Origin: Syntrophales bacterium
GTDB taxonomy: Bacteria > Desulfobacterota > Syntrophia > Syntrophales > UBA2210
DNA: 64,000 bases
Direction: 5' to 3'
Assembly (NCBI GenBank): GCA_963662405.2
Contig: CAXXKT010000001.1
Coordinates: 128,001 to 192,000 of the forward strand
This document shows positions 48-37,357 of this stretch, in pieces. The position numbers and the translations under genes were made by a program. Each line of letters starts with the position of its first letter. Position 1 is the stretch's first letter. The notes under the pieces were generated by a model, which was not told the DNA's origin, did not search any database, and saw only the letters and a list, made by a program, of their open reading frames with translations.

Positions 48-517
48 ACCCTCATTGTTGCCTTATCTTATTACAAATTCATAAATACTGAGAAGCAGTA
101 ATTTAGGCTAAAAACTCAAACTGGGCTAATAAGCTAATATAACTATAGATATTTTTTTAATTTGTTGATAATCTTCCAAAGAATTCAGGGGAGTTCAAAG
201 AAGAGAATCTCCCCCGGTTTATTGCTGTTTCCGATAATATTATATATATCAAGCACGTGGAGTCTATCCCCCATAATAAGTATTCTTGCATGTCTCCGCC
301 CCCTTCGCGTCCCTGTAGGTAGGTGGGGGAAGACCGGGCAGGGTCCCCGGTTTTTCGGTAGCGAACCTATCCCCCTAAATTGTGCCTTTTCCTGTGCCCG
401 TGAGGTCAAATTTTGCTGAATTTTACCGCATATTCCCCAACGTGAACAACAAAATAAACACCTAATCTTTCAAATAGTTGCCTTTTCCCTTGCGTTTTCC
501 AACTTTCTTTTTTCGAA

Positions 518-606: not shown

Positions 607-963
607 AACCATCTTTCATTTTACCCCACACCCTACCCCACACGGGAAGATGAATTTGGTCCTTTTCAGGCAATATGGGCGAAATATTTGTTGGGGTGGA
701 TGTTGATATATACTTGAAGGAATATCGTTGTTTCTTCCTCCTACCATGAATTTATATAGAGTGGTGTATAATCGATTAGTCGATGTTCATGGGAAGGCGG
801 GAGGACTCAGTGCTTCCTGGGCGTTAGAGCCCTCATTTCAGTATGTCCCAAGCCTCTGTGAACCATAATAGGTTGGTTGGATCATTGAATCCTTGTCACG
901 CTGGAGGATTGGTCTGGAGGCTATGGTTCCTGCTTTTCCTTTCATTCGTTAGGAGGTGAAGCG

Positions 964-2166
964 ATGTCAGGATTAACGGACAGCTTTAATGATTTTGTTG
1001 GAATAGATGTTTCCAAAGATAAATTCGACGCCTGCGGAATCACAAGAGATGCAGCACAGCTCTTCCAGTTTTCCGCGAGCATGGATCGTAAGGGCTTCGA
1101 TAAGTTGAGGGAACATCTTGCTTCTGTTTCCATTTCGTCCGTTTTAATCGGGATGGAATCAACAGCATCTTATCATATCAATCTTTTCTCGTACTTGATT
1201 TCAGAGGGTTACCGAGTGATCATCATTAATCCTCTGCTGATTTCCAATTACGTGAAGATGCAGCTCCGGAAAACCAAGACAGATAAGAAGGATGCCGCTG
1301 TTATTGCCATGTTTCTTCTTGCACACAGAAATACCCTGAGCCAACGATCATATTCTCCTTTGATTTCCGAGCTTCGGGATCTTTCACGTCAGCGGGAGAA
1401 TCTGGTTGATGAGATGACCGCTCTGAAGATCAACATCAAACGGCTCCTGAATATCACTTTTCCGGAATTGGAGCATATGACGTTGGTCTTTACGAAGTCT
1501 ATGCTGAAGCTTCTCCAGCAATACCCATCTGCTGTTGCTCTGAGAAGTGCGGATCCTATTCAATTGTCCCAGACGCTCATTGCAGATTCCTATGGGCACA
1601 AAAGAGAAGCATTTACCGCGGAGTTAATGAAGGCAGCTAGAGCGTCGGTCGGTACCCACAGTGCTGCGAAGGAAGTCATTCTTAAACAACAGGTGACCTT
1701 GCTCCTTCACTTTGAAGAGGACCTGCAAGAGATAACCGGCATATTAATTGAGATGAGCCGAAATCTGATGGAAGAAGACATAAACATTCTGACTTCCATA
1801 AAGGGCATTGGTAACAAAACTGCTGTTAATTTTCTCATTGAGATGGGGGGCGACATCAATCAGTATGATGATTCCGGGAAGATCATTGCCATGGCGGGCT
1901 TAGATCCGGCTGTTTACCAGTCAGGCAAACATGAAGGTAAAGGCAAGATCACGAAACGAGGGAACCGCCATTTACGGAGAGTCATCTGGATGATGGCAAC
2001 CAGGGTGATCAACTATAGCGATGTTTTCAAGACTTACTACCTCAAACGTAGAAAGGAGGGATTGCCGTATAAGATGGCAGTATTGGCCACCGCTCACAAA
2101 TTGATCCGTGTCATCTATGCCATGCTGACGCAACGGACAACTTTCTGCCCACAGATAAATTCATGA
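964..2166 (+). CDS. IS110-family transposase (recombinase)
   Basis: VGIDVSK, GMESTA, KTDKKDA DEDD domain; AGLDP..YQSG...KRGN..LR C-terminal domain; ~200-bp noncoding leader. Element ends not resolved. Confidence 0.95.
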   Translation: MSGLTDSFNDFVGIDVSKDKFDACGITRDAAQLFQFSASMDRKGFDKLREHLASVSISSVLIGMESTASYHINLFSYLISEGYRVIIINPLLISNYVKMQLRKTKTDKKDAAVIAMFLLAHRNTLSQRSYSPLISELRDLSRQRENLVDEMTALKINIKRLLNITFPELEHMTLVFTKSMLKLLQQYPSAVALRSADPIQLSQTLIADSYGHKREAFTAELMKAARASVGTHSAAKEVILKQQVTLLLHFEEDLQEITGILIEMSRNLMEEDINILTSIKGIGNKTAVNFLIEMGGDINQYDDSGKIIAMAGLDPAVYQSGKHEGKGKITKRGNRHLRRVIWMMATRVINYSDVFKTYYLKRRKEGLPYKMAVLATAHKLIRVIYAMLTQRTTFCPQINS

Positions 2167-2227
2167 TAGTTGACTGAAAGAGATGGGATCAAGAGTGAAG
2201 AAAAAGTGGAGGATTTCTTTCCGTATT

Positions 2228-2283
2228 CATTAACACAGAGTTCACCGGGGCGCTTACGCATCCGGTGAAACAACTTGTTCAGC
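2228..2283 (-). other. attC site, array 1
   Basis: Minus strand GCTGAAC...GTTTCACCGGATGCG-TAAG-CGCCCCGGTGAAC-tctgt-GTTAATG; imperfect palindrome with extra bases overlapping the gene stop. Confidence 0.8.
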
Positions 2284-2613
2284 ATTCGTGCTTTTAGACT
2301 CCGGGAGTGTGCCGGTTTTTAGTCGATACTCGTAGGTCTGTTCCTTTTTGCATCGGTTTACGATGGTTGTCTCATTAACGGGTGCTCCCATTGTCCAGTA
2401 GACTATTTCGTCTTCATCGAAATACGTAATACGTTTCTTGTAAAAGTGCCCCTCGTATCCGTATGATCTGATATGCCCGACAAGCTGAATAAATAATTCT
2501 TCGTCAAGGCGGTCACGTACAATATACTCGTGTGGCCAAGTAGGCGCATAGGTCTTGGCAAACGTCCACTTCTGCTCTGTGATAAAAGCTTTGAGGTTGG
2601 TGGGAAGCTTCAT
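2254..2613 (-). CDS. Hypothetical cassette protein
   Basis: ORF from MKLPTNL ending inside attC; start chosen downstream of the previous gene's stop. Confidence 0.75.
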   Translation of the reverse strand: MKLPTNLKAFITEQKWTFAKTYAPTWPHEYIVRDRLDEELFIQLVGHIRSYGYEGHFYKKRITYFDEDEIVYWTMGAPVNETTIVNRCKKEQTYEYRLKTGTLPESKSTNAEQVVSPDA

Positions 2614-2647
2614 CGTCTCATTCCTGTTCGGTGTCCCGGATGGCCTT

Positions 2648-3226
2648 TCAATATGGGATTCGTTCGTCCAGCCCGCGAATTGTCTCAGGTGCTGCAATAA
2701 CGAGTTGTCCGCGATTCTTCTCGCTCTTGGTTCCGATATGATTGTCAGCCGGATATAGCGCCGTGTCTACAGGATGGTTGTTCCTCAGATTCCAACCGAT
2801 GCACCCTTCAATGTGTTTTCGCAATTGAGGGTCAACCTCTACTGGGGCAAAGAAGATGTTTAGAACGGACACATATTTGATGACTGAACCATGGATGGTC
2901 TCGTATGCGTCAATCTGCTTATGCGGTCCATCTGGTGATTTGTCTCTCCACAGCCCCGGCCAAATGAGTTCGCAGATGCCTTGTTGCGCCTTGTCGGGAT
3001 CGAATATACCATAGTTGAGTCCGAGGATATGGATGAGGTGTTCCCGTTGTCGTTTTGCGAGAGACACCGTCTCTCCCACGTAGTGCACCATGTGTGTACG
3101 GTCAGCATGTTGCTGAATAGTCCATAGATATACTCCGGCAACACTGGCGCATGGTGCCGTGAAAACAGAATTATGACGATCCAGAAAGCTGAATGGCCCA
3201 GTAAAGTTTAGATTAAGCGTTTCCAT
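2648..3226 (-). CDS. Cassette protein, GIY-YIG nuclease-like
   Basis: GVYLW...VHYVGET..LAKR..EH motif; starts just after GTTCGGC. Confidence 0.6.
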   Translation of the reverse strand: METLNLNFTGPFSFLDRHNSVFTAPCASVAGVYLWTIQQHADRTHMVHYVGETVSLAKRQREHLIHILGLNYGIFDPDKAQQGICELIWPGLWRDKSPDGPHKQIDAYETIHGSVIKYVSVLNIFFAPVEVDPQLRKHIEGCIGWNLRNNHPVDTALYPADNHIGTKSEKNRGQLVIAAPETIRGLDERIPY

Positions 3227-3244
3227 GTGTTCCGTATCCTGGTT

Positions 3245-3281
3245 GCCGAACAATGTTTATATGGATCCTGATAAAAACCTA
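3245..3281 (-). other. attI-like site, array 1
   Basis: TAGGTTTTTATCAGGATCCATATAAACATT-GTTCGGC; 32/33 identical to 30267-30299. Confidence 0.7.
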
Positions 3282-3359
3282 TTTTCCTTCCTGCTATACG
3301 TACCAAAGTGGTGATTGCAACTGAGGTAATTTAGGTTCATCATCTGTCTGTATTTCTTA

Positions 3360-4532
3360 TTGATTCAGGATAAGGAGGCAGAGATGACCATGAAAGACGA
3401 TACTACACGGAAGGCAGCAATGTCTTCTGCAGTTACAGAACATCCCACCGCAACGACATCCTGGCATTACCAGACTCGTTTCCGTTTTTCATTACATCGT
3501 GATGGAAGTGTTGAGACACTCGCTACGATTTTGCAGCATCTTTCCCACATGGATCTTCCGGGCACGGATCATGTTGCGGCCTATCTGCGTTACCTGACCT
3601 ATCGTAACCGGCGCCCCCGGACGTTGACAAGTCGTTTTGGTTCCATAGTTTTGTTCCTCGCCATGGTGCGTGACAGCGGGAAGACACGTATTGAAGACGT
3701 TACCAGGAGAGATATTGAGTGCTTTATCGAGCACGAGCAGGACAGGGGCAATAAGATTACGACGATACGGACAAAGCTCGTCAATGTGCAAGCCTTTCTG
3801 CGCTATCTCGTGGAGGAGGAGATTGTTTCCCCGGATGTGTTTGGCAGGAGGATACGGTTGCAGCTGCCGGAGCGGCTGCCGAGGGCTATGGATCCTGACG
3901 ATCTACAGAAGCTGTTATCCGTGATTGACGATACCCGGGACCGAGCCATGATCATGGTACTGTTGAGGACGGGGATGCGCATCGGCGAGTTGCTCAATAC
4001 GAAGGTATCAGATGTCCACATCGGGGAACGGAGGATAGAGATTTACGAAGGCGAGAAGAACCGCCTGGGGCGCGTGGTGTATCTCAGTGACGATGCGATC
4101 CGTGCGCTCCGGAGGTGGTTGCAGGAGAGGAATCCCTGGGAGGCGTACCTTTTTTCCACTCATAGAAGCATATACCAGATGTCGTACAGCACCGCCCGTC
4201 TGATCTTCCATCGATATCTTGAGAAGGCGGGGTTACGTGACCGGGGCTATACGCTCCATACGCTTCGGCACACCTTTGCAACGGAGTTTCTCAACGCTGG
4301 CATGCGCCTGGAGTGTCTCCAGGTGCTGCTGGGTCACCGGAGTATCGAGGAGACCAGGCGCTATGCCAGGCTTACCGACAAGACCCGCGAGGAAGAGTAC
4401 TTTCGGGCCATGGCCCGGATAGAAGGGAGGGATAGTGATGGACATAACCAATGTCATCGTGAACTGGCGGCGGTTTCTGAAACGGAGAAACTGTTCGCCC
4501 AATACCGTGAAGAACTATCTGAATCTCATTAA
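3360..4532 (+). CDS. Tyrosine recombinase A with N-terminal SAM-like domain
   Basis: TGMRIGE, HTLRH, LLGH, TRRY motifs; start uncertain. Confidence 0.92.
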   Translation: MIQDKEAEMTMKDDTTRKAAMSSAVTEHPTATTSWHYQTRFRFSLHRDGSVETLATILQHLSHMDLPGTDHVAAYLRYLTYRNRRPRTLTSRFGSIVLFLAMVRDSGKTRIEDVTRRDIECFIEHEQDRGNKITTIRTKLVNVQAFLRYLVEEEIVSPDVFGRRIRLQLPERLPRAMDPDDLQKLLSVIDDTRDRAMIMVLLRTGMRIGELLNTKVSDVHIGERRIEIYEGEKNRLGRVVYLSDDAIRALRRWLQERNPWEAYLFSTHRSIYQMSYSTARLIFHRYLEKAGLRDRGYTLHTLRHTFATEFLNAGMRLECLQVLLGHRSIEETRRYARLTDKTREEEYFRAMARIEGRDSDGHNQCHRELAAVSETEKLFAQYREELSESH

Positions 4533-5331
4533 ACACTTTGTTGTCTGGGCGGACGTGCCCGTTGAGGAGGTGACGCATGCAACGGTATCGCGCTACATAG
4601 AGTATCTGATGCAGAAGCGGCTATCGCCCAAGACCGTCAACTGTCATCTGAACGGTATTCGTCAGTTCTATCACTATCTGCGGGAAGAGGAAGGGATCGG
4701 TATTGTCAATCCCATCAGGAACAAACATACACAGAAGATGCCCCGACCCCTTCCCCGGCATTTACGAGACGAGCAGGTGGATCGTTTCTTTAACGTTGTG
4801 AATGGACACCGTGACCGTGCCATGTTCATGCTCATGCTCCGTTGCGGTCTCAGGGTGGAAGAGGTTGCCACCCTTGCCATCGGTGCCATAGACATCAAAC
4901 GCAGGGCTATCTTGATTGAGGACGGCAAGGGTGCAAAGGACCGGGTCGTGTATATGAGTAATGATGTGATTCAGTCACTGGCAGCCTATCTGAGAGTACG
5001 GCCGGCATCCCGGGCACGGAAGATCTTTCTGGCAGAGAAAGAGCCGTGCAGGGGCCAGCCCATCTCCATCCGCGGCATTCAACGGCGCATGGAACACTAT
5101 GCCCGCAAAGCGCGGATCAAAATGTCCTGTCATCATCTCCGGCATACGATGGCTACGCAGATGCTCAATGCCGATGCTGATCTGTGTACGATTCAGGATC
5201 TTCTCGGCCACAGCAATATAAAAACCACCCAGAGGTATTGCCGTGTATCGAACATGAAGGTTCAGAGAGATTACTTCAATGCCATGGAGGTCATTATGCA
5301 CCGAAGGGCCTGCAACCCACATAACACTTGA
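4438..5331 (+). CDS. Tyrosine recombinase B (XerC/D-like)
   Basis: CGLRVEE, GKGAKDR, HHLRH, LLGH, TQRY; GGAGG RBS; overlaps recombinase A. Confidence 0.92.
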   Translation: MDITNVIVNWRRFLKRRNCSPNTVKNYLNLIKHFVVWADVPVEEVTHATVSRYIEYLMQKRLSPKTVNCHLNGIRQFYHYLREEEGIGIVNPIRNKHTQKMPRPLPRHLRDEQVDRFFNVVNGHRDRAMFMLMLRCGLRVEEVATLAIGAIDIKRRAILIEDGKGAKDRVVYMSNDVIQSLAAYLRVRPASRARKIFLAEKEPCRGQPISIRGIQRRMEHYARKARIKMSCHHLRHTMATQMLNADADLCTIQDLLGHSNIKTTQRYCRVSNMKVQRDYFNAMEVIMHRRACNPHNT

Positions 5332-5509
5332 CGGAACAGAGAATATGTGAAATGGTAAACAACAACTAACCGCATAGAATCAATAGGTAAATCAGACTAT
5401 AGTACGTATAGCTTCCTGTAGTTGAGAAAAACAAGGGTGAAGAAGAAGTAGAATATTTCTTCCTGCAATCATTAGGAAAATAGTCGCTGTTGTCACTATT
5501 TTTCAAGAC

Positions 5510-8500
5510 TTATACGGCGTTATTTTTGGACTTCAAGATAATAGTGTCTGTATAAGCTTTTTGAAAAAGGTCGCTTTCTGCCGTACCGCTTGTCAATCCC
5601 GATGCAAGATGATTGAAAATTCTTTTTTTAGACTCAATCTCATATTCAGCGATCATTTCTGCTAATAACGATTTCGATCTGTTTTCTATATCTCTGTCCA
5701 TATCAATCCCATAGGCAAATTCCACGACGTCTTTATATATACTCCAAGCTTGTGCCCAGTATTTTATATCTTCGTGGTCACGTCTTATTCTCTTTAAAAG
5801 TTCAAGAGATATAGACAGAAATGATCTCGCTAAGAAGTTAAGCTTGTCCCTTTCTGCTTTTTGAACGAACTGTATTTTTTTGAACCAAACATACCAAATA
5901 GCTGTAATTATATTTTGTTCAACTAATATGCCATCCTCTTTACTGATCATGTATGATAAAAATTGTCCAATCTCGGTCAATGCGTTTTTGTAATCCCCTT
6001 TAAACCACCAAATAGCATTTATGAATGAATTGAAGGCTTGGTGATTATTTAATATCTCCAAATAATTCTCTATGCTTCCCCCCGCCTCTGAAAGATCATC
6101 TTCGAGAACAATCAATATATCCTTATAGTTTATCGGCATTCCAACCACATTAAATGCGCATAGCTGGGCGAATTTCTCTGCGGCTTCTTTTTGAGTTATT
6201 ACCTTCTTTTCTTTTAATATCGTTATTATATCGATTGTAGATATAGTATCTTCATAATGATTCTTACCACAAACATAGAGCCTTGATATTGCATCATCTG
6301 TATAAAATATGGGTTTTAATGAGTCATAAACAGACTTTATTTTATCTAATTCACTGAAAATATTATTTTCATCTATTATATCTTTACTTGAAGGTTGTTG
6401 AATCTGTTCAACATATCTTGATAATAATTCAACTATATCTTTAGCTTTGGTTGCATAGGGGATAAAAACAAATTGTTGAGCCAACATCTGTAAGTTAGCG
6501 ATTGAGTCTTTTGCGATTGCAATTTTAGGAAATATATCAAAAATGTATTCTAATAATGCTAAGTCGAATAAAATCAACAAAGCCACATCATCAATAAGAG
6601 GCATTCGCCCTCTAAGGTTCTCTATTCTTCTTGGCACATAGGGCCCGGGGCTAATAGTCAGCTGATATTGCAGATCATCCTTTCCGGTTATCTTGGACAA
6701 CTCCCACAGGTGAATAAAGTTCGAAACGTTCAATAAAAAATGATGCCTGATTAAATAAGGAACAGGAAGCGTGCCGCTGCTTAAAAGATTTTCATTCCGC
6801 TGGTACCATTCCCTTTTTTCTTTTGTGAATCCTGTTATAGTTTCTAGTTGAGATAATAGATCTTCGTGCGATTTTTCTTTTACATGGAATGATCTTAAAA
6901 CTTTTGACTCTGGAAATCTCTCTGTATATTTCTTAAGCCGTTTTTGAAACTCTTGAACGTTCTCATCTTGAACCGTTTTTTCAGGATCAAGTGTTGCCAC
7001 AAAGAAATTTAACAAATAAAGTCCTTCTTCAGCTTCATCATTTTGGTCACACAATTGGCCATATTTTAAACATATATCAATCAACCTCTCACTCTTTGGA
7101 TTGATATACATTTCAATGTTAAACAACATCCTCAAAAAATGTACCTTCTGCTTTTGATAAGTTGCTTTCTCAAGAAGTCGGGTGACCAAGGTTTTGGCTT
7201 TTTCGATCAGACCACATCTTGCTGATATATTTATATAGATTTCAAGTGCAAACGGGTCATGTTTTTCTCCTTGTGAGATTTCTTCTAAAAGTGTTAATGA
7301 TTTTCCTGTTTCTCCAATTCCATCTAGTGCTAAAGCCTCAAATGCTTTAAACTGAGAGTTGGTTGAAAATCTGATTTGTGCCTTGCGGGATGTTGCTAAA
7401 ACGCCATGCCAGTCTTGGACTGTTACTTTAGCCTGACAAAGAATAGTGTATTCGCTGTCTAGTAAATCCCTCTCCGAAATGATATCAATCGAAATTTCAA
7501 TAATTTTTTGTGCTGCGGCGTTTTCATATGGGTTAAGGTTATTAAAAAGTTGAGCTAATAATTGATTGTGTTTGTGACCTTCTTTGTAAACATCATATAG
7601 TTTTTCAATTGCCTCAGGCTTTTTTAACGCTTCCTGATTTGCGTGCAAAATAAAATCATATACTGCGATCAATGACCTTGAATTAGGGACCGTTTGTAGT
7701 GCCTCAAGAAACTTGTCTCTTTCAGTATACTTCATGAGATCATTAGCGCATTCAGCTGCAATTGCGATAACGGTGTCATAGTTAGCGGGTTTTTCTTTGA
7801 TTAGATCGTCAAGTATTTCAATAGCTAATTTGACCACTTCCGCTTTATCGTTTTTCCAATAAGTTAAAATGATTTTATTGGCTTTATTGTTTAGTGTATT
7901 TGGTAGCTTACATAATTGCCGCTCTGCAATGGTTCGATCACTTGTATGCATTGCAACTTGAAACAAACTTTCCTGTACAATTTGAATGGATGGTCTGATG
8001 TCTGCCAATTTAACGAGGTGTTTTTTAACGATTTCTGGCTCATTAAAATACATGCCTAAAATAGAGAATATATCGATCATCGATTGAACGTCAGGGGGGT
8101 ACCCTAATTTATCAGCTAAATTCATCGCAGATATTAACTCTATCCATGCGTTCTTTAATATTTCCGGATTCATGTCAGGAGTGCCTGCGAAAGATATCGC
8201 TTTGTCATCAGGAGTTTTTCTGAATCCAAGATTGAAGTATGATCTGGCTTTTAATGATCTTAAACTTAGTTCTTGTCTATCAGTTAAATCTTGTTCTGAG
8301 AATGCTTTGTTGACTTGGTTTATACAGTCATTGTATGAGCCTGAAAGCAAATGTATAAGCGCTTTAAGGACGAAAATGTCTTGTTCGTCCTGGTTTTCTA
8401 AAATTTTAAAGGCTTCTTCATATCTTTCGTTTAAAGCCAGCAATTTTGACTTCAGCCGAAGGTAATCAAGATCATTCTTTTTTTCTATCTCTGATAAAAT

Positions 8501-27350: not shown

Positions 27351-27444
27351 TAATGAGTACGAATGAAGGCTGTCTTTGTTTGCTTCCTGTAGTCGATAAA
27401 AACCAGAGTGAAGAAATAGTAGTGGTTTCTTTCAGTACTCATTA
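27351..27444. repeat. 94-bp unit with 10-bp terminal inverted repeats, containing the conserved array-distal segment
   Basis: TAATGAGTAC...GTACTCATTA; right part similar to 5412-5474 and 2190-2232. Confidence 0.6.
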
Positions 27445-27501
27445 CGGACTGCTGTGGGGCGCGCGGTCGTTTTGCGCGCCCCTACCAGCAGATAGTTAGC
27501 A
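27439..27501 (-). other. attC site, array 2, third cassette
   Basis: TGCTAAC...GCTGGTAGGGGCGCGC-loop-GCGCGCCCCACAGC-agtcc-GTAATGA (GTA instead of GTT). Confidence 0.8.
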
Positions 27502-27508
27502 TAGCTTT

Positions 27509-28243
27509 TTATGTTTTCGCCATCGCTTTTGAAAGATTACCTGATTTTTTCCACCCATAAAAAGTTTTTTCAAAAAATTCTTTAGACGCTGTATTTTCAA
27601 TCAGGACAGGTAATATACCATTATAATTTAGGAAAAGCTTTTCATTGTATGGTAGCTGTCCAGTATGGTTTGAAATAAAAAACACCCATGTTAAACCCGC
27701 CAACACAAACATATAACATCGATGTCCATCAAATCTTGTTTCTTTAGCGAGCATCATCATTTTGCTGGTAAAATCGAAATAGGACGGGGTAAAGATTATG
27801 AGGCATCCATAGTCATAAGATGCACCTGGATTACCCTCGTATAACATAGAACGTAATTTTTCTTCATGAGGTCCTAAGCTAACGTTTGTAAATTGATGAA
27901 GATTTGATGCTCCTGCTCGCCATATAAGCGAAAGCTGAAATAGTTTAAACTTTGTATAATCAATATTTTTTATTATGATAAAATCACTCATTTTCTCCAT
28001 ACTTAGCTTATTACCACTAAAAAACACTTGAGCAGCATATGTTTCCCATTTATTCAGTCTGTCTTCGCATTCTCGGCAAAGCATCTTTTCCCTAAAGCCC
28101 TTTTGCCATTTTCTTACTTTTGGTGCACCTTCTATTTGAACGAATTGATGCTTTTCCTTGGCATAAAGAGCTTTGAAAAGAAATTCTGGGACTATATGCG
28201 AATTACATAGTTCTTTTTCTTTAAGGCACAATCTACATTTCAT
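27509..28243 (-). CDS. Cassette protein, HNH-endonuclease-like
   Basis: CRLC....L..SHIVP...LCRECE N-terminal motif. Confidence 0.65.
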   Translation of the reverse strand: MKCRLCLKEKELCNSHIVPEFLFKALYAKEKHQFVQIEGAPKVRKWQKGFREKMLCRECEDRLNKWETYAAQVFFSGNKLSMEKMSDFIIIKNIDYTKFKLFQLSLIWRAGASNLHQFTNVSLGPHEEKLRSMLYEGNPGASYDYGCLIIFTPSYFDFTSKMMMLAKETRFDGHRCYMFVLAGLTWVFFISNHTGQLPYNEKLFLNYNGILPVLIENTASKEFFEKTFYGWKKSGNLSKAMAKT

Positions 28244-28253
28244 AGTGAATTGA

Positions 28254-28315
28254 TGCTAACGGGCTGCTCAGGGGCGCGCGGCTTTTGCGCGTTTACTGCA
28301 GCAGCAATGTTATAG
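28254..28315 (-). other. attC site, array 2, second cassette
   Basis: CTATAAC...GCTGCAGTAAACGCGC-loop-GCGCGCCCCTGAGC-agccc-GTTAGCA; CTATAAC is complementary to the GTTATAG that opens the cassette. Confidence 0.9.
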
Positions 28316-28333
28316 CAACGTCTTATGATTCAA

Positions 28334-28936
28334 TTATAGAGGGTCTTCATTAGATAAACGTATTTCAAAAGTGTTACCTAAATACATAATATTTAGACAG
28401 TTTCCATGGCCTAAAAATACTCTTTCCATACCTTCTTTAGCTGGTTGAAGTCGGTATTCGACCTGAGTAACCTTTGCTGCAACCGCAATTTTAACACCGA
28501 AAAATGTATCTGGATCGTTTTTTATTGCTTTGATAATTGAATAAACCTTTTGCTTGGGGCAAAGAAGTTCCAGCTTAAGCTCTGGCGAATGCCTTGAGGC
28601 CCTTATCAATAGCTGGTAGTTGATATCATCACATGTAGCCACATTCTCCAAGGTTCCGATAAACAGAATGGGTTTGCCAATTAACCATACTGCCTCTAAA
28701 TCAATCGAGTAGAGACATCGGGAATGCTTTTTAATAATGGATTCTCTCCAGCTAGTATCAGCTCCCGAATCCCTAGCAAAAGCTTGGACTGCCAAGCGTA
28801 GGGCCTCTTCTTGAGCTTTTTCTTTAGCGCCAGAATCTGCGATATCTTTCTGACGATCTGAGCATGATAGCATACACAAGCTAAGAATGGCCGCAGTTAC
28901 AATAATGAGCCTCTTAAATCGATGTATATGTGTCAT
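28334..28936 (-). CDS. Cassette-encoded putative lipoprotein
   Basis: Start after GTTATAG-AGGTAGG; signal peptide ending LCMLSC. Confidence 0.7.
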   Translation of the reverse strand: MTHIHRFKRLIIVTAAILSLCMLSCSDRQKDIADSGAKEKAQEEALRLAVQAFARDSGADTSWRESIIKKHSRCLYSIDLEAVWLIGKPILFIGTLENVATCDDINYQLLIRASRHSPELKLELLCPKQKVYSIIKAIKNDPDTFFGVKIAVAAKVTQVEYRLQPAKEGMERVFLGHGNCLNIMYLGNTFEIRLSNEDPL

Positions 28937-28950
28937 GGGTTTTCCTACCT

Positions 28951-29024
28951 CTATAACGTTGTCTTCACCGGTGGCGACGAAGTGAAGTGGAATTGTCCCA
29001 TCCGAGTGCAAGGCATGGTTGGCA
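28951..29024 (-). other. attC site, array 2, first cassette
   Basis: TGCCAAC-catgc-CTTGCACTCGGATGG...CCACCGGTGAAG-acaac-GTTATAG with extrahelical bases. Confidence 0.9.
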
Positions 29025-29027
29025 TTT

Positions 29028-30248
29028 TCATCCAAATGAAAAAGACGTATTCTTGCTAAATACTTTTATCTCACCATCGGCGGAGATTTTCACAGAAAGC
29101 CCATAATCTTTCAGTGTGTTCGCTGCTGCAAGTCGCGCACCTCCGTCTGACCCTGCTTCCAGCTTAAGTATCGCTCCTGCAGAAATAAACTTTCCTGTAG
29201 CATCAAGAACCACCGCACCGTCAATACCGAGAATTTCTTGCCTCAATCTTCTATCTGTATTTTGAAAGGTAGCATTATTTATAGCCGCTAATAATACCTT
29301 GGTTTTGATAGATCGATTATTTTCGAAATGATCTGATTCATTAACCCTTTGATCATCATGAAATTTTTTAGATTTCGCCTTTTGAAGTATCCCGATGCAA
29401 GCACCAGTACGTGCAAATGAAACGTCAATGATTGACTCATAAAGGCTTTCCCTCAGATTTCTATCAAGTTTCCTGCTTTTAAACGCTAATTGTCTTAATA
29501 CTGAATTGTAAGCGAATAGCCTCCATTCCCCTCTTCTTTTAGCAAATATGAGGGTCCCAGAGTTGAAAACTAATATTTCGCCATTTCTATTTAATATAAG
29601 GGCGATCTTGTTGTTTCCCTCAGTATATTTTGCAAAGGTGGTGTAGCGGAAAGGTGAGTTGTGAGTTTCTGGTGCGAGGTTAAGTGTTTGGTATCCAATA
29701 AGATTATTTCCGATGGAAAATTCCACCAATGTATCGTACCCATTTGTCAATACCTTCGAAAAATCATTCTTTGTATATTCTTCAAAAGTTGTACCATTTG
29801 ACGAAATAACATTCATATCAATGCCAATAGATACAGCTATCCTATTACCTTCATATGTCTCTCCTGACCAACGTTCCAATTTTTCAATAAATCTGGCTAT
29901 CTCCAGAATTTTATTAGAATCGTCATCCTCAACCAAAGATTTTGCTATAACCCTACTAACAGTGTTCGATATCAGATACTTTTGAATTTGTTCATCAAGT
30001 GTTGCATAATCATTAGCTATATTAAATACATCTCTGATAATTTTTGTTTCATTAGATTCAAAAGGTTGGGCTCTATAAACAATATACCGTCCTCCTTCTT
30101 CACAAAGAATCCCAATTTTAGAGCCTCCGCTTAGGTGTGATACATCTTTCTTCTGATTTCCTGAATCTTGTTCAAAAGATATATCAATACCAGAGAAAAA
30201 TTTAACAATTTGGTTAGAGAGTATAAAGTCAACTAAATCTTTTTTCAC
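29028..30248 (-). CDS. Cassette protein with C-terminal DisA_N/diadenylate-cyclase-like domain
   Basis: TGACIG, IDGAVVLD..G, GGARLAAA, VKISADG. Confidence 0.75.
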   Translation of the reverse strand: MKKDLVDFILSNQIVKFFSGIDISFEQDSGNQKKDVSHLSGGSKIGILCEEGGRYIVYRAQPFESNETKIIRDVFNIANDYATLDEQIQKYLISNTVSRVIAKSLVEDDDSNKILEIARFIEKLERWSGETYEGNRIAVSIGIDMNVISSNGTTFEEYTKNDFSKVLTNGYDTLVEFSIGNNLIGYQTLNLAPETHNSPFRYTTFAKYTEGNNKIALILNRNGEILVFNSGTLIFAKRRGEWRLFAYNSVLRQLAFKSRKLDRNLRESLYESIIDVSFARTGACIGILQKAKSKKFHDDQRVNESDHFENNRSIKTKVLLAAINNATFQNTDRRLRQEILGIDGAVVLDATGKFISAGAILKLEAGSDGGARLAAANTLKDYGLSVKISADGEIKVFSKNTSFSFG

Positions 30249-30262
30249 ATCTGCTCCTTATA

Positions 30263-30299
30263 TACCAACAATGTTTATCTGGATCCTGATAAAAACCTA
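30263..30299 (-). other. attI-like site, array 2
   Basis: TAGGTTTTTATCAGGATCCAGATAAACATT-GTTGGTA; GTTGGTA pairs with TGCCAAC of the first attC. Confidence 0.7.
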
Positions 30300-30561
30300 A
30301 ACACGGCAGTTTTGCTGTATGAAGCCTCTCACGAAAAACAAAAAGCCCCACCTCTCTTTGATGAGAAACAGGGCTTTGATAATCAGACCATAATCCACTC
30401 CTTGGTTACAGCCAGTCACAAGCAGAAAAAATCAAGATCAAGATTTCATCTAGCTAACTCTATGATGATGTATTGTCAAGAGATTTTACCATGAGACCTT
30501 CAATCAGTATTCATCGATTTTCTTCTGGAATTATTTTGAGCAGTAGTAGATACCGTTCTTG

Positions 30562-31530
30562 TCAAGCGAAAGCTGGTTTATAATTTGGGTCATACTTTTT
30601 GCCGGATTTCAGGATTCCAAAGATAATGTGCACCAGCTTCCTCATTATCGCACAGACAATCACTTTCCCGTTTTTTCCTTTCTCTTTAAGGCGATTATAA
30701 AAAGCAATCATAACGGGATTACATTGGATCGATACCAGTGCCGGCATATACAGAGCTTTTCTGAGCCGCGCATGTCCGATTTTGCATAACCTGGGTTTGC
30801 CTTTAATAGATGATCCTGAAAGTGTTTCCCGTGGCGCAAGCCCGATGAACGCCACCAGTTCCCGCACATGACTGAATTTGTCCAGATCATCCAATTCTGC
30901 CAGGATGTGAGGAATGGTTGCCGTGCCGATACCTGGAATGGAAGCCAAGAGCCCTTTCTTGTTTTTCAGGTTCGGATCCCGATCAATTAGATCAGCAATC
31001 TGTTCCCTGATTTTCTCTATTTCCTTATCAAGATAGTTAATGTGTTCTCTGATCAATGGAATAACTGATTCATGAGCTGCACTTATTCGATTCTTCTCCT
31101 GACTTCGCATGTTGATCAGACTGTCAACTCGCCTGACCAACGCCCTCAGGGCTCTGATCTCCGGTGAGGGTGGACTCCAGGGATCTGGTCTCATAGCCAG
31201 ACAGAATCTGGCAATCAAGGCTGCATCAACCTTATCCGTCTTGGTGCGAATCAACTCGCTCTGGCCAAACCCTTTGATGCGAGCGGGATTGACAACACTG
31301 ACCACATGGCCGGTTTCATGGAGATAGATCGCCAATTCCTCTCCATAGTTGCCGGTCGCCTCAAGGCAGGCATGTACCTTATGAACTCCCTGTCTCTCCA
31401 GCCAGATCGTCAGTGTCTCAAAACCTTCCACCGTATTTTTGCAGGTTTTGTGTTTTGTCTTCCCCTCTACAAGAAGTGCAACGTCGAATTTCTGTTTTGC
31501 GATATCTATCCCAAGAACCGATACTGACAT
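30562..31530 (-). CDS. IS110 transposase (IS621-like size)
   Basis: LGIDIAK, LEATG, KTDKVDA, GLAP...SGSS. Confidence 0.96.
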   Translation of the reverse strand: MSVSVLGIDIAKQKFDVALLVEGKTKHKTCKNTVEGFETLTIWLERQGVHKVHACLEATGNYGEELAIYLHETGHVVSVVNPARIKGFGQSELIRTKTDKVDAALIARFCLAMRPDPWSPPSPEIRALRALVRRVDSLINMRSQEKNRISAAHESVIPLIREHINYLDKEIEKIREQIADLIDRDPNLKNKKGLLASIPGIGTATIPHILAELDDLDKFSHVRELVAFIGLAPRETLSGSSIKGKPRLCKIGHARLRKALYMPALVSIQCNPVMIAFYNRLKEKGKNGKVIVCAIMRKLVHIIFGILKSGKKYDPNYKPAFA

Positions 31531-31574
31531 ACTACAATACTCCCTCGTACATTAATCTAATCTCCAGTAAAATA

Positions 31575-31735
31575 GCTTCGTTCGAATCAACCTTGTAAGT
31601 GCAAACTCATTCCCATCTGAGAAGGTTTATGATACCGTACGAGTTATTGAACAAAGCTGTGGGAAGAGGATCTACTCTACAAATCATGCTCTCTGGCATC
31701 AGGTGAAACACAGATTCACTCTCCCCATTTTACCC
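31575..31735 (-). ncRNA. Putative bridge RNA of IS110 copy A; ends approximate
   Basis: Two loops with segments matching target (GTTTCACCT, GTAG) and donor junction (ACGGTATCA, ACAAG). Confidence 0.7.
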
Positions 31736-31875
31736 CAGTGTCTCAAGATCTCTTATATCTCCTAATCCCCTTCTAGAACACAAGGTGCTATACGTAACAA
31801 AATGGTGGTTGCAACTGAGCCATCATAGGTTCATCATCTATCTGTATTTCCTGTTGATTTGGTGGGAAGGAGAGA

Positions 31876-33039
31876 GTGATGAGCCAAAAAGCCACAGAAA
31901 CGTATTCTGTCTTATCTCCGTCATCCCTGACTGGTTTGAGAAACACCGATCATGGTGAGGGGATACAGCACACCGTTGTTTTCAAACCGGGCATTCCTGA
32001 AAAAACAGGGTGCATTGAGGGCCTTCGATACCAGCAACAGTCAAAAGCACTTCGATGGGCATTAGATCGTATTGCGGCCTGGAACCTGCCTGGCACGGAG
32101 CATGTTGAGGAATATTTTCGGAGCATGTATCGGCGGAACTTCAGGCCCAGAACATACGCTAGCAACTTGGCAGCGATTCATGTCTTTCTCACCGTTGTCA
32201 GGGATTCGGGAAAGGCCCATTTGGAAGAGGTTACCAAAGGTGACATTGAAGCCTTTATCGAGCATGAGCAGGATCGAGGGTTGATGTTATCAACAGTACG
32301 GACGAGGCTGCATTGCGTCAATGCCTTTTTAGGCTATGCAATAGATTCAGGTATTGTTGGCACCGATGTCCTGGCACGAAGGATCCGCCTGAAAAAGCCG
32401 GAGACATTGCCTCGAGCCATAGATCCTGATGACGTCAAGCTTCTTCTCTCCGTTATCGATCATCCCAGAGATCGAGCCATGGTCACGGTACTTCTACGGA
32501 CGGGAATGAGAATCGGCGAGTTACTCGGTACCATGGTACGGGATCTTCACATGAAAGACCGGAGGGTTGATATTTACGAAGGGGAGAAGAATCGTATCGG
32601 GAGAGTGGTCTATCTCAGCGATGATGCGGTCAGTACTTTGAAGGCATGGCTCAAGATGAGAGATGCCCATAAGGAGTTTCTCTTTTATGCCCGAGGTAAA
32701 AGTAGCATGTCTTACAGCACTGCTCGTCAGATATTTGTAGATTATCTCACGAAAGCCGGTCTTGCTTATAAGGGATACTCCCTTCATGCGCTTCGCCATA
32801 CCTTTGCCAGTGAGCTACTAAATGCCGGTATGAGGATCGAGTGTCTCCAGCCACTGATGGGGCATACATCTCTGGATGTCACCAGGCGCTATGCACGGCT
32901 TACGGACAAGACAAGAGAGGGAGAGTACTTCAGAGCCATGACAATCATAGAAAGGGGGAAAATTGATGGACATTACCGATGCGATCATCAGGTACAGGCG
33001 TTTCTTGAAGAGAAGGAACATCTCACCGAACACTATTAA
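31876..33039 (+). CDS. Tyrosine recombinase A
   Basis: TGMRIGE, HALRH, LMGH, TRRY; paralogue of 3360-4532. Confidence 0.92.
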   Translation: MMSQKATETYSVLSPSSLTGLRNTDHGEGIQHTVVFKPGIPEKTGCIEGLRYQQQSKALRWALDRIAAWNLPGTEHVEEYFRSMYRRNFRPRTYASNLAAIHVFLTVVRDSGKAHLEEVTKGDIEAFIEHEQDRGLMLSTVRTRLHCVNAFLGYAIDSGIVGTDVLARRIRLKKPETLPRAIDPDDVKLLLSVIDHPRDRAMVTVLLRTGMRIGELLGTMVRDLHMKDRRVDIYEGEKNRIGRVVYLSDDAVSTLKAWLKMRDAHKEFLFYARGKSSMSYSTARQIFVDYLTKAGLAYKGYSLHALRHTFASELLNAGMRIECLQPLMGHTSLDVTRRYARLTDKTREGEYFRAMTIIERGKIDGHYRCDHQVQAFLEEKEHLTEHY

Positions 33040-33859
33040 GAACTATTTGAATAGTCTCAAACGGTTTGTGATCTGGCTCGATGTACCGATCGAGGAGGTT
33101 ACATACCATAAGATTACAGCGTATATAGATTGCATGATCGGCCAACGGTTACGTCCGAAGACTATCAACTGTCATCTGAATACGGTTTGTCAGTTTTATC
33201 ACTACCTCATCGAAGAGGAAGGGCTCCCGATCGTGAATCCTGTCAGGAAACCAAATATCATGAAACTCCCCCGGGGACTTCCCAAACATCTCAGAGAAGA
33301 CCACATAGATATCCTCTTCAATCATCTGAAAGGATATCGGGATCGAGCCATGTTTACGCTCATGCTCCGATGTGGCCTGCGAGTGGAAGAAGTGGCTCAT
33401 CTTTCACTCGGCAACATTGATCTTAAACGCAGAATGCTCCTCATCCAGGATGGCAAGGGTGCCAAAGATCGAATTGTCTATATCAGTAACGATGCCCTTC
33501 ATGCTCTCGTGAAATATCTCTGGGTGAGGCCCGCAAACAAAGTAAGGAGGGTTTTTCTGGTAGAGAAAGGGCCATGCACGGGACGTCCTCTCTCCATTCG
33601 CGGCATTCAAAAGCGCATGGAGTATTATGCGCGTAAAACAGGACTCAAGATATCCTGTCACCATCTTCGTCATACAATGGCCACTCAGATGTTGAATGCA
33701 GATGCTGATCTGTCTACCATCCAGGATCTCTTGGGACATAACTCAATCAGGACAACACAACGATACTGCCGAATATCAAATCTCAAAGTACAGAGAGATT
33801 ACTACAAAGCCATGGAGGTGATCATGCAGAAGACGGCTGGCAACTCAAATAATCCTTGA
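32966..33859 (+). CDS. Tyrosine recombinase B
   Basis: CGLRVEE, GKGAKDR, HHLRH, LLGH, TQRY; paralogue of 4438-5331. Confidence 0.92.
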   Translation: MDITDAIIRYRRFLKRRNISPNTIKNYLNSLKRFVIWLDVPIEEVTYHKITAYIDCMIGQRLRPKTINCHLNTVCQFYHYLIEEEGLPIVNPVRKPNIMKLPRGLPKHLREDHIDILFNHLKGYRDRAMFTLMLRCGLRVEEVAHLSLGNIDLKRRMLLIQDGKGAKDRIVYISNDALHALVKYLWVRPANKVRRVFLVEKGPCTGRPLSIRGIQKRMEYYARKTGLKISCHHLRHTMATQMLNADADLSTIQDLLGHNSIRTTQRYCRISNLKVQRDYYKAMEVIMQKTAGNSNNP

Positions 33860-33950
33860 CGGGATAGAGGATTTATGAAACTTTAAACACAGCATAACAC
33901 CATAATATCAATGGTAAATATAGATTATGTTACGTATAGGTAGGTGCAAG

Positions 33951-34151
33951 ATGTGAGGTCCGGTGTAGCAGGGGCAGAGCTAGTGTTTGGTTGCGCTGTG
34001 CTTCCTGTTGTCAAGCTTCCAGTTAAGAGGGTTGTGCTTTATTACAAACGGTAATGGTTGACATACTGTAGTGCCGTTGGGAAACCAAGTGGAAAACGGA
34101 GTAAACAAGTCTAATCAACATGTAGAATCGAGAGAAAACGGTCTATTTGAC
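33951..34151 (+). mobile_element. Possible degenerate, internally deleted group II intron relic
   Basis: 5' similar to 37358 (GTGTG start); 3' GGGAAACCAAGTGG...GGTCTATTTGAC resembles an intron domain VI end. Confidence 0.4.
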
Positions 34152-35760: not shown

Positions 35761-36031
35761 GATTCTTTCCTTTTATCTGGTTTGCTTTGCCAGCAAAGGG
35801 GATTTTTGATGTCAGACCCGATAAAAAAAACTACCATAGCAATCTGTCCATCACATCTATACCACATGTTAATTTAGAATACTGTCATTTTACATTGCTT
35901 AATGCAGATAATTCGTTGTCACTGTATGAAAGTAATTCCATGGACTATATGACCTGAATATTTTATATCCAAGTCGAGATCTTTCAATCCGCAATCATCA
36001 GTATGCGAAGTTTTCAAGGATATTTGTTTGT

Positions 36032-37268: not shown

Positions 37269-37350
37269 GTGAAACACAGATTCACTCTCCCCATTTTACC
37301 CCAGTGTCTCAAGATCTCTTATATCTCCTAATCCCCTTCTAGAACACAAG
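37187..37350. repeat. Exact 82-bp tandem duplication of the IS110 left end
   Basis: 37187-37268 equals 37269-37350. Confidence 0.95.
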
Positions 37351-37357
37351 GTGAAAA

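What the first reader, a model, noticed from the sequence alone, without database searches (positions are those of the whole stretch)
2228..5411. Integron-like platform where a two-recombinase element sits in the place of intI (locus 1 of 2)
Seen: attC (2228-2283), two cassette-like genes, an attI-like site (3245-3281), then 12 bp further a pair of tyrosine recombinases transcribed away from the cassettes. The same layout recurs at 27.4-33.9 kb with diverged recombinases and unrelated cassettes. Known: canonical integrons put intI in this divergent position, and IntI has an extra insertion near patch III for folded single-stranded attC. Neither protein here has it (ALRRWLQERNPWEAYLF; YLRVRPASRARKIFL). 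Inference: either a non-canonical integron run by a recombinase pair, or a mobile element that preferentially lands next to attI sites of intI-less arrays.
Basis: partly seen in the sequence, partly recalled or inferred. Interest (0 to 1): 0.9.

Follow-up and report, generated by a model that had tools for sequence, protein, structure and literature searches.

The report
Two-recombinase jumping element beside integron array
The two recombinase genes are not the integron's own enzyme but a small self-contained jumping element, apparently of an undescribed kind, that has landed beside an ordinary integrase-less gene-cassette array.

Summary
The layout recurs at 27.4-33.9 kb. The reading "the pair replaces intI" does not hold.

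The pair is a discrete 2.1-kb element (3294-5411; second copy 31788-33939). It has terminal inverted repeats (CTATACGTA...) and a 7-bp repeat on each flank (CTTCCTG; GTAGGTG-type). I delimited 52 such elements in 48 of 77 related loci, from Syntrophales, Nitrospirota and other anaerobe MAGs. The flanking 7-mers are identical in 39 of 50. Copies within one MAG are 99.5-100% identical with unrelated flanks.

None of the 77 loci carries the attI-like motif or a canonical intI. The window's genome has its own canonical IntI with a cassette array elsewhere, plus XerD.

Best reading: an insertion-sequence-like transposon moved by two Xer-like recombinases. Its closest analogues are Tn554 and SE elements, but it is smaller and has no accessory genes. 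It sits beside a CALIN-type array.

Earlier notes of this scan on the same genome reached a similar view. A sequence look-up found no look-alike in other genomes' windows.

The parts
2228..2283 (-). attC-type site closing the cassette of locus 1 (R'' GCTGAAC ... R' GTTAATG)
   Evidence: ssDNA fold z -4.26, 1 of 200 shuffles as good. Found by my heuristic scan, missed by the stricter one.
2254..3253 (-). Two overlapping ORFs (2648-3253 and 2254-2697), probably one two-gene cassette
   Evidence: ORF list. No Pfam or NCBIfam family. No hairpin seen between them.
3249..3281 (-). attI-like site: palindrome TTATCWGGATCCWGATAA followed by AAACATT|GTT
   Evidence: 6 copies in the genome, conserved up to GTT and then divergent. 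An ORF starts 20-67 nt after each. Multi-copy with varying flanks in a sediment metagenome. Also present in 5 related genomes.
3287..3293 (+). Left copy of the 7-bp core CTTCCTG (target side)
   Evidence: Read directly. Same 7-mer on both sides in 17 elements of this subfamily.
3294..5411 (+). Two-recombinase element, copy 1 (2118 bp). Perfect 10-bp terminal inverted repeats at 3294-3303 and 5402-5411. Second inverted-repeat block at 3347-3366 and 5377-5396.
   Evidence: Ends and sub-terminal block are conserved across 18 aligned elements. Metagenome contigs carry 3283-5415 at about 98% identity with other flanks.
3384..4532 (+). Recombinase A (382 aa from the ATG behind AAGGAGG; the ORF is open from TTG at 3360)
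   Evidence: PF00589 2.3e-37. R-K-H-R-H-Y invariant in 19 homologues. Integron-integrase model 72.8 bits against a cut-off of 265.
4438..5331 (+). Recombinase B (297 aa), overlapping the end of A
   Evidence: PF00589 1.2e-37. Catalytic residues invariant in 19 homologues. Best solved relative is 4a8e, a XerC-like/XerA protein, 2.6e-36.
5412..5418 (+). Right copy of the 7-bp core CTTCCTG (the copy that appears to travel with the element)
   Evidence: Read directly. In the 11 of 50 elements whose two 7-mers differ, it is the left copy that departs from the subfamily's 7-mer in the listed cases.
5412..5480 (-). 'R' repeat unit (about 65 nt), ending in CAGGAAG on the - strand
   Evidence: nhmmer profile: 13 places in the genome at E <= 0.016. 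Unstructured as ssDNA, z +0.47.
2184..2240 (-). Second R unit, directly after the attC, cut short by an IS110-family element (734-2183)
   Evidence: Alignment of R units. IS ends defined from a second copy at C1:879589.
27439..27501 (-). Last attC of locus 2, followed by R unit 27384-27450
   Evidence: Fold z -5.41, 0 of 200 shuffles as good. Coordinates.
28254..28315 (-). Internal attC of locus 2 (CTATAAC ... GTTAGCA)
   Evidence: Fold pairs both ends, z -2.28. Found by the scan. Same end boxes as C1:2220001 in the array beside the canonical intI.
27509..30248 (-). Cassette ORFs of locus 2 (27509-28243, 28334-29035, 29028-30248)
   Evidence: ORF list. No Pfam or NCBIfam family.
30267..30300 (-). 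attI-like site of locus 2
30340..31787 (-). IS110-family element inserted between the attI-like site and element 2
   Evidence: DEDD and Transposase_20 domains. Copies at 93-100% identity elsewhere in the genome share the right end ...ACAAGGTG.
31788..33939 (+). Two-recombinase element, copy 2 (A2 31876-33039, B2 32966-33859). Flanking 7-mers are CAAGGTG (31781-31787) and GTAGGTG (33940-33946).
   Evidence: A1/A2 59.5% and B1/B2 66% identical.

Best explanation
The pair is an autonomous, insertion-sequence-like transposable element of about 2.1 kb. It encodes only two Xer-like tyrosine recombinases, A and B, in an overlapping operon. It ends in inverted repeats CTATACGTA(A/C)C, with a second inverted block of about 20 bp inside each end.

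Shown:
- discrete ends;
- a 7-bp sequence repeated on both flanks that is constant within a subfamily;
- many near-identical copies at unrelated sites;
- complete catalytic residues in both proteins;
- patchy distribution among related genomes.

Inferred:
- A and B act together, as XerC and XerD do.
- The element leaves as a circle whose junction reads right repeat, 7-bp spacer, left repeat. That is the layout of a classical core site.
- It enters a target that carries the same or a similar 7-mer. The spacer it carries ends up at the right border and the target's own 7-mer at the left border, as described for SE elements and Tn554.

Copy 1 has entered CTTCCTG at the outer end of a 65-nt repeat unit, next to the attI-like site of an integrase-less cassette array. 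That array is served, if by anything, by the canonical IntI encoded 2.08 Mb away.
For: Ends and flank repeats. 52 complete elements in 48 loci are 2034-2479 bp long, median 2118. The flanking 7-mers are identical in 39 of 50. The most frequent pairs are CTTCCTG 17, GTAGGTG 7, CACCTAC 5 and CTTGCCA 4.

Synteny. A and B lie adjacent in nearly all loci long enough to show both.

Recent movement. Copies within one MAG are 99.5-100% identical over 2.1 kb, while 600-bp flanks give no match (L015/L016/L035, L037/L038, L060/L062, L028/L029). Several contigs are about the size of the element. Sediment-metagenome contigs carry window 3283-5415 at about 98% identity and then continue into unrelated sequence on both sides.

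Catalysis. R-K-H-R-H-Y is invariant in 19 A and 19 B sequences.

Not IntI and not the housekeeping Xer pair. Integron-integrase model scores are 72.8-120 bits against a cut-off of 265. XerC and XerD models score 125-205 bits against cut-offs of about 330. The genome has a separate XerD at 371.8 bits and an intact IntI at 471 bits.

Independent distribution. The pair is in 4 of 31 related genomes and the attI-like motif in 6 of 31. Only the window's genome has both.

Asymmetry. Among the 11 elements with unequal 7-mers, the left copy is the deviant one in the listed cases. SE elements show the same pattern in PMC10214605 (Background section read).

A-B contact. Weak support only: score 0.34 against a best control of 0.00. 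That mark was reached by 116 of 157 solved complexes and 2 of 215 mismatched pairs, but a pass at 0.60 or under is weak. The three runs agree in at least 76% of contacts and the partner's pLDDT is at least 78. The result may reflect likeness to solved recombinase assemblies.
Against: No circular junction or empty site was observed. Of 24 metagenome stretches matching right repeat-N7-left repeat, none is a clean circle or tandem junction. Only assembled contigs, not raw reads, could be laid on the window.

The same near-identical element occurs with its 7-mer in either orientation: CACCTAC and GTAGGTG in L028/L029. Simple conservative recombination that needs spacer homology does not explain this.

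The targets show no arms resembling the element's repeats, so how a target is bound is unknown.

No sigma-70 consensus promoter was found in the left end of copy 1.

That both proteins are needed rests on synteny alone.
Confidence: 0.78

Rival explanations
1. The element is a site-specific parasite of integron platforms. It recognises the conserved modules that border cassette arrays (the R unit ending CAGGAAG, and the following unit ending CACCTAC), so its place beside attI is no accident.
For: In this genome both copies sit exactly at module ends. Copy 1 is at the CAGGAAG end of an R unit abutting the attI-like site. Copy 2 is at the CACCTAC end of the unit that follows an R-like unit.

CTTCCTG occurs 968 times and GTAGGTG 265 times in the genome, against about 13 R units.

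R units directly follow an attC in at least 10 places.

With the core excluded and each locus left out in turn, the best match to the flank profile lies in the right flank in 10 of 13 loci of the CTTCCTG subfamily, with E < 0.01 in 6 of 13.

Two IS110-family elements also sit in or beside these modules.
Against: The core-less flank profile from other genomes does not significantly hit this genome's R units, so homology of the two flank families is unproven.

I saw no attC next to the flank unit in the 13 other loci.

The 77 loci hold 0 attI-like motifs and 0 canonical intI genes.

The heuristic attC scan gives 4 places in 75.7 kb near elements against 8 in 394 kb elsewhere. None of the 4 is convincing, and the scan recovered only 2 of 9 known sites.

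Only two insertions exist in this genome.
Confidence: 0.14
2. The pair is the working integrase of a non-canonical integron and recombines the attI-like site with attC sites.
For: Position and divergent orientation beside the attI-like site at two loci. The proteins are Xer/IntI-related simple tyrosine recombinases with full catalytic sets.
Against: The pair's own inverted repeats and 7-bp flank repeat exclude the attI-like site from the unit.

At locus 2 an IS110-family element of 1.45 kb lies in between.

4 of the 6 attI-like sites in the genome have no pair nearby.

Genomes G005, G006, G007 and G011 have the motif without the pair. G002, G013 and G016 have the pair without the motif.

Both proteins lack the IntI insertion.

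A canonical IntI with an array of like attC sites is present in the genome.
Confidence: 0.04
3. The unit is a fixed invertible or regulatory switch: recombinases flanked by inverted repeats that flip their own segment, not a transposon.
For: Perfect terminal inverted repeats flank the two genes. The 7-mer is found in both orientations relative to near-identical elements.
Against: Near-identical copies lie at unrelated sites within one genome. The distribution is patchy, 4 of 31 relatives. The element occurs in another sample with different flanks.
Confidence: 0.03

Closest known systems
Tn554 and strand-biased circularizing integrative elements (SE), as described in PMC10214605 (Background section read)
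   Same: Two tyrosine recombinase genes in one operon. Imperfect terminal inverted repeats. A short spacer (6 bp there, 7 bp here) that appears to travel with the element to the right border, while the target's own copy stays at the left border. Target preference. No conjugation genes.
   Different: No third or fourth core gene (no TnpC, Tfp or Srap). No large (>600 aa) recombinase. The element is only about 2.1 kb and carries no cargo. Both proteins are Xer-like simple recombinases. Hosts are anaerobic Thermodesulfobacteriota and Nitrospirota rather than Firmicutes or Gammaproteobacteria. Sequence relatedness to TnpA/TnpB or IntA/IntB was not tested.
Recombinase-in-trio (RIT) elements and GInts (PMC3414803 passages; PMC8138268 passages; PMC5385486 abstract only)
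   Same: Compact units built around several tandem tyrosine recombinases, suspected or shown to be mobile.
   Different: Three recombinases (plus a fourth gene in GInt) and about 3.5 kb or island size. Here there are two genes and clear short terminal repeats with a 7-bp flank repeat.
XerC/XerD with dif
   Same: Two paralogous Xer-type recombinases. A core site made of two inverted arms around a short central region, which is the layout inferred here for the circle junction.
   Different: The A and B genes are adjacent, multi-copy and carried inside the mobile unit. They score below the XerC and XerD model cut-offs. The genome has its own XerD.
CALIN, clusters of attC sites lacking an integron integrase (Cury et al. 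2016, PMC4889954; passages read)
   Same: The cassette arrays beside the elements: attC sites with no intI nearby, in a genome that encodes IntI elsewhere.
   Different: These arrays keep a conserved attI-like site and a conserved 65-nt unit after the last attC. Locus 1 has only one clear attC, whereas a CALIN needs at least two.

Membership tests
Integron integrase (IntI) | Score above the curated cut-off of the integron-integrase model TIGR02249 | tested here: not met
   A1 72.8, B1 120.1, A2 77.8 and B2 102.2 bits against a cut-off of 265. The genome's true IntI scores 471.4.
Integron integrase (IntI) | IntI-specific extra segment between the conserved catalytic blocks | tested here: not met
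   In the alignment with the genome's IntI, the long insertion is present in IntI only and is gapped in A1, A2, B1 and B2.
Complete integron | intI adjacent to attI and at least one attC | tested here: not met
   No intI in the window. The nearest is a broken one at C1:30608-31553, and the intact one is at C1:2211990. IntegronFinder itself was not available.
CALIN | At least two attC sites with no intI nearby | tested here: inconclusive
   Locus 2 has two attC-type hairpins (z -5.41 and -2.28). Locus 1 has one clear hairpin (z -4.26) and one weak hairpin (z -0.85). The sites were judged by fold and end boxes, not by the IntegronFinder model.
Tn554 / SE-type paired-recombinase transposons | Two tyrosine recombinases with catalytic motifs in one operon between imperfect inverted repeats | tested here: met
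Tn554 / SE-type paired-recombinase transposons | Accessory core gene(s) (TnpC, or Tfp plus Srap) and one large recombinase | tested here: not met
   Only A (382-390 aa) and B (297 aa) fit between the repeats, and the element is 2034-2479 bp long.
Tn554 / SE-type paired-recombinase transposons | The short spacer of the circle is placed at the right border and the target's own copy at the left border | tested here: inconclusive
   The pattern of unequal 7-mers (left copy deviant) fits. No circle or fresh insertion was observed.
Recombinase-in-trio (RIT) | Three tandem recombinase genes | tested here: not met
   Two genes only.
XerC/XerD chromosome dimer resolution | Score above the curated XerC or XerD cut-offs; housekeeping role | tested here: not met
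   Best scores are 204.8 against 335 (XerC) and 173.5 against 329.6 (XerD). A separate XerD scores 371.8 bits at C2:216895. The pair is multi-copy and patchy.
Insertion sequence (operational definition) | Under about 2.5 kb, only mobility genes, terminal inverted repeats, multiple copies at different sites | tested here: met
   Actual transposition was not observed.

The most novel reading that the evidence does not exclude
The 7-bp cores at the ends of the repeat modules that bracket cassette arrays are working recombination sites for the A+B pair. If so, the pair can excise and re-insert whole blocks (attI-like site, cassettes, last attC and R unit) lying between two directly repeated cores. 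That would be a second, array-level layer of cassette mobility, run by a mobile two-recombinase element on top of the IntI system.
Probability: 0.08. Interest if true: 0.85.

Novelty: new variant of a known kind. Interest (0 to 1): 0.62.

Why it matters
No established insertion-sequence family that I know of (recalled, not checked) is moved by tyrosine recombinases. A 2.1-kb element with nothing but two Xer-like recombinases, clear ends and a 7-bp core would be the smallest member of the paired-recombinase transposons (Tn554, SE). It would be a simple model for how two recombinases divide the work between donor ends and target.

The element is widespread and multi-copy in uncultured anaerobes. 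It breaks assemblies there and is likely to be annotated as XerC/XerD or as an integron integrase.

For integron work the lesson is practical: a Xer-like pair beside attI is not evidence of a new integrase.

Tried and rejected
- BIM (bipartite module) as the known two-gene element: rejected. It is one recombinase plus an unrelated protein (PMC3414803 passages).

- Literature searches for a described two-recombinase IS-like element: nothing fitting in the held library. Subscription papers and ISfinder were not searched.

- Rfam: no family at the R unit, the attI-like site or the element ends.

- First attC pattern finder: found nothing. A looser one was noisy.

- Covariance model for attC: abandoned. 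The MAFFT alignment of 10 sites (A4) was not in structural register.

- Final heuristic attC scan: recovered only 2 of 9 known sites, so the enrichment test on the 77 loci has little power.

- Empty-site search in 30 relatives: the flanking cassettes are not conserved, so no empty site could be found.

- Sequencing runs: no RNA holder listed. All runs laid were contigs and no joints were reported.

- Metagenome scan for the circle junction: 24 stretches, none a clean junction.

- Plasmid collection: no relative above 31% identity.

- Apparent likeness between the start of the R unit and the sequence upstream of the canonical intI genes: not backed by the nhmmer profile, so dropped.

- Promoter scan of the left end of copy 1: none found.
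Full report
SETTING. The window is C1:128001-192000 of a 3.8-Mb, three-contig genome with 52-54% G+C. The two loci of the finding lie in lower-G+C stretches, 34-54% in 1-kb windows at 1-12 kb and 38-50% at 27-38 kb. Related loci come from MAGs labelled Syntrophales, Smithella, Syntrophaceae, Nitrospirota, Thermodesulfovibrionales and Desulfobacterales (record titles).

On the - strand, 2228-2283 folds as single-stranded DNA far better than shuffles (-12.3 kcal/mol, z -4.26, 1 of 200). Its AAC and GTT ends pair, a spacer stays unpaired, and the inner stem is bulged. It overlaps the stop of ORF 2254-2697. That ORF and ORF 2648-3253 match no family and have no hairpin between them, so they look like one two-gene cassette.

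The attI-like site is a perfect 18-bp palindrome, TTATCWGGATCCWGATAA, followed by AAACATT|GTT. It occurs 6 times in the genome. Every copy is conserved up to the GTT and diverges after it, and every copy has an ORF start 20-67 nt further on. That is the behaviour expected of a cassette insertion point. The motif also occurs in 5 of 30 related genomes. In a sediment metagenome it is multi-copy with varying flanks.

Locus 2 has two attC-type hairpins (27439-27501, z -5.41; 28254-28315, z -2.28), three ORFs without family, and the same attI-like site.

THE PAIR IS A UNIT OF ITS OWN. Twelve bases after the attI-like site, copy 1 begins with CTATACGTAC (3294). It ends with GTACGTATAG (5411). CTTCCTG stands on both sides, at 3287-3293 and 5412-5418. 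Copy 2 runs from 31788 to 33939 and is flanked by CAAGGTG and GTAGGTG.

A search of one genome per species with protein A returned 77 loci. A and B lie next to each other in nearly all loci long enough to show it. In 48 loci I could delimit 52 complete elements of 2034-2479 bp, median 2118.

All 52 carry the terminal repeat CTATACGTA(A/C)C or a close variant. They also carry a second inverted block of about 20 bp. At the right end this block follows the terminal repeat almost directly. At the left end it lies some 40 bp further in, just before the ribosome-binding site of A.

The two flanking 7-mers are identical in 39 of 50 elements. The most frequent pairs are CTTCCTG 17, GTAGGTG 7, CACCTAC 5 and CTTGCCA 4. 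In the 11 unequal cases listed, the right copy is the subfamily's 7-mer and the left copy deviates.

IT MOVES. Within single MAGs, copies are 99.5-100% identical over 2.1 kb while 600 bp of flank on either side give no match. Several contigs are barely longer than the element. Contigs of a sediment metagenome carry window 3283-5415 at about 98% identity and then run on into unrelated sequence at both ends. Among 31 related genomes the pair is present in 4.

I did not see a circle, a tandem junction or an empty site. The circular intermediate is therefore inferred, not shown.

IT IS NOT THE INTEGRON'S ENZYME. Both proteins keep the full R-K-H-R-H-Y set, invariant in 19 + 19 homologues. Their best models are archaeal XerA, XerC and XerD, all below cut-off. 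The integron-integrase model gives 72.8-120 bits against a cut-off of 265. Neither protein has the long insertion that the genome's own IntI has.

The genome encodes an intact IntI at C1:2211990-2212934 (471 bits) and a broken one at C1:30608-31553. A crude structural scan recovered only 2 of 9 known sites. Even so, it found at least 9 attC-like sites between C1:2214480 and 2225079, just beyond the 3' end of the intact intI. One of them has the same end boxes (CTATAAC ... GTTAGCA) as the window's 28254-28315. A housekeeping XerD is present as well.

The attI-like motif and the pair are distributed independently:
- 0 motifs in the 77 loci, 575 kb;
- 0 canonical intI in those loci. The one stronger hit, in L069, is a 293-aa recombinase next to a 420-aa ORF that I took, from its sequence alone, for an IS91-family transposase; no family scan was run on it;
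- 4 of the genome's 6 motif copies have no pair nearby;
- only the window's genome has both features among the 31 genomes.

At locus 2 an IS110-family element separates the pair from the attI-like site.

HOW IT MOST LIKELY WORKS. The joined ends would read right repeat, 7-bp spacer, left repeat: two inverted arms around a short asymmetric centre, as in dif, loxP or FRT (that comparison is from general knowledge). Two paralogous recombinases in an overlapping operon suggest a hetero-oligomer like XerC/XerD.

A complex prediction gives only weak support. The score was 0.34 against a best control of 0.00. That mark was reached by 116 of 157 solved complexes and 2 of 215 mismatched pairs, but a pass at 0.60 or under is weak. 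The three runs agree in at least 76% of contacts and the partner's pLDDT is at least 78. The result may simply reflect likeness to solved recombinase assemblies.

The constant 7-mer on the right and the occasionally deviant 7-mer on the left match what is described for SE elements and proposed for Tn554. There the spacer of the circle goes to the right border and the target's own bases stay at the left (PMC10214605, Background).

Two facts do not fit a simple homology-dependent exchange. Near-identical elements carry the 7-mer in either orientation. The targets have no arms resembling the element's repeats. A tolerant, SE- or Tn554-like mechanism therefore seems more likely than a Cre-like one.

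TARGET CHOICE AND THE INTEGRON CONTEXT. In this genome a 65-nt unit, here called R, ends in CAGGAAG on the cassette strand and follows the last attC directly in at least 10 places. At two places a second unit ending in CACCTAC follows it, and then a repeat of about 200 bp that precedes several attI-like sites.

Copy 1 sits exactly at the CAGGAAG end of an R unit, and copy 2 at the CACCTAC end of the following unit. An IS110-family element interrupts another R unit near the same end. CTTCCTG occurs 968 times and GTAGGTG 265 times in the genome, so this placement is unlikely to be random. But it rests on two insertions.

In other genomes the right flank of the CTTCCTG subfamily shares a motif beyond the core. 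Leaving each locus out in turn and excluding the core, the best hit of the locus lies in that flank in 10 of 13 loci, with E < 0.01 in 6 of 13. That profile does not significantly hit this genome's R units. I saw no attC beside those flanks. The low-power attC scan shows no clear enrichment: 4 places in 75.7 kb near elements against 8 in 394 kb elsewhere. A preference for integron platforms therefore remains a minority reading.

COMPARISON WITH WHAT IS KNOWN. The arrays fit CALIN-type elements (PMC4889954, passages), with the addition of a conserved attI-like site and the R unit. The pair resembles Tn554 and SE elements in logic. It lacks their accessory genes, their large recombinase and their cargo. 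RIT and GInt have three recombinases, and BIM has one.

Five searches of the held library found no description of a two-recombinase element of IS size. ISfinder and subscription journals could not be checked, and no supplements were opened.

Earlier notes of this scan on the same genome (e1-7687078, e1-7687080) reached the same overall view. I tested their main points independently. A sequence look-up found no look-alike in other genomes' windows.

VERDICT. The integron-integrase reading is not supported. The mobile-element reading is supported. The element is best filed as a new, minimal variant of the paired tyrosine-recombinase transposons, sitting beside ordinary integrase-less cassette arrays.

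Noticed in passing
G000 C1:2211885-2225079 (outside the window): An intact canonical intI, followed from 1.5 kb beyond its 3' end by at least 9 attC-like sites. Several are near-identical (CCCGAAC...GCATGTT). This looks like a complete chromosomal integron whose array lies on the 3' side of intI.
   Followed up: partly
window 734-2183 (+); second copy at C1:879589-881038: An IS110-family element (400-aa DEDD transposase), 99.9% identical to its second copy. It is inserted in an R unit close to the same end that the recombinase element uses.
   Followed up: partly
window 30340-31787 (-), 36030-37353; C1:1415565, C1:305115, C2:343179: A second IS110-family element with 4-5 copies. The roughly 200 bp downstream of its transposase gene resemble about 50 solo repeats scattered over the genome at 72-87% identity. 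Read by eye, that stretch shows a TTGACA-type hexamer and a terminator-like hairpin; no tool scan was run there. Several of the repeats lie directly in front of attI-like sites. This could be a guide-RNA region of the IS family or a leader, and is unresolved.
   Followed up: partly
window 33947-34067 (-); C2:332100-332420: A conserved unit of about 60 nt ending in TTGCACCTAC follows an R-like unit. The 7-mer at its end is the target of the second element subfamily.
   Followed up: partly
window 311-377 (-): Rfam match to the int-alpA RNA motif (38.2 bits against a gathering score of 35.8).
   Followed up: no
window 5510-9478 (-): A 1322-aa ORF with an N-terminal DUF4365 domain and no other family. 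It is followed by only a weak hairpin (z -0.85) before the R unit.
   Followed up: no
G000 C2:407198-407236: A solo right end of the element (92% identical over 39 nt) followed by CTTCCTG, with no recombinase genes attached. A distant tyrosine recombinase gene lies 1.5 kb away.
   Followed up: no
L120 (metagenome contig), around 360-480: Tandem mini-units of about 42 bp (left repeat, 20 nt, right repeat) separated by the 7-mer CCAAGTG. They look like miniature derivatives of the element family.
   Followed up: no
L028 and L029 (one MAG): Three and two elements of two subfamilies clustered within 11 kb, with 7-mers CACCTAC, CTTCCTG and GTAGGTG.
   Followed up: partly
window 59697-61022 and 61068-62393 (-): Two adjacent 441-aa ORFs of equal length, possibly a tandem duplication.
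   Followed up: no
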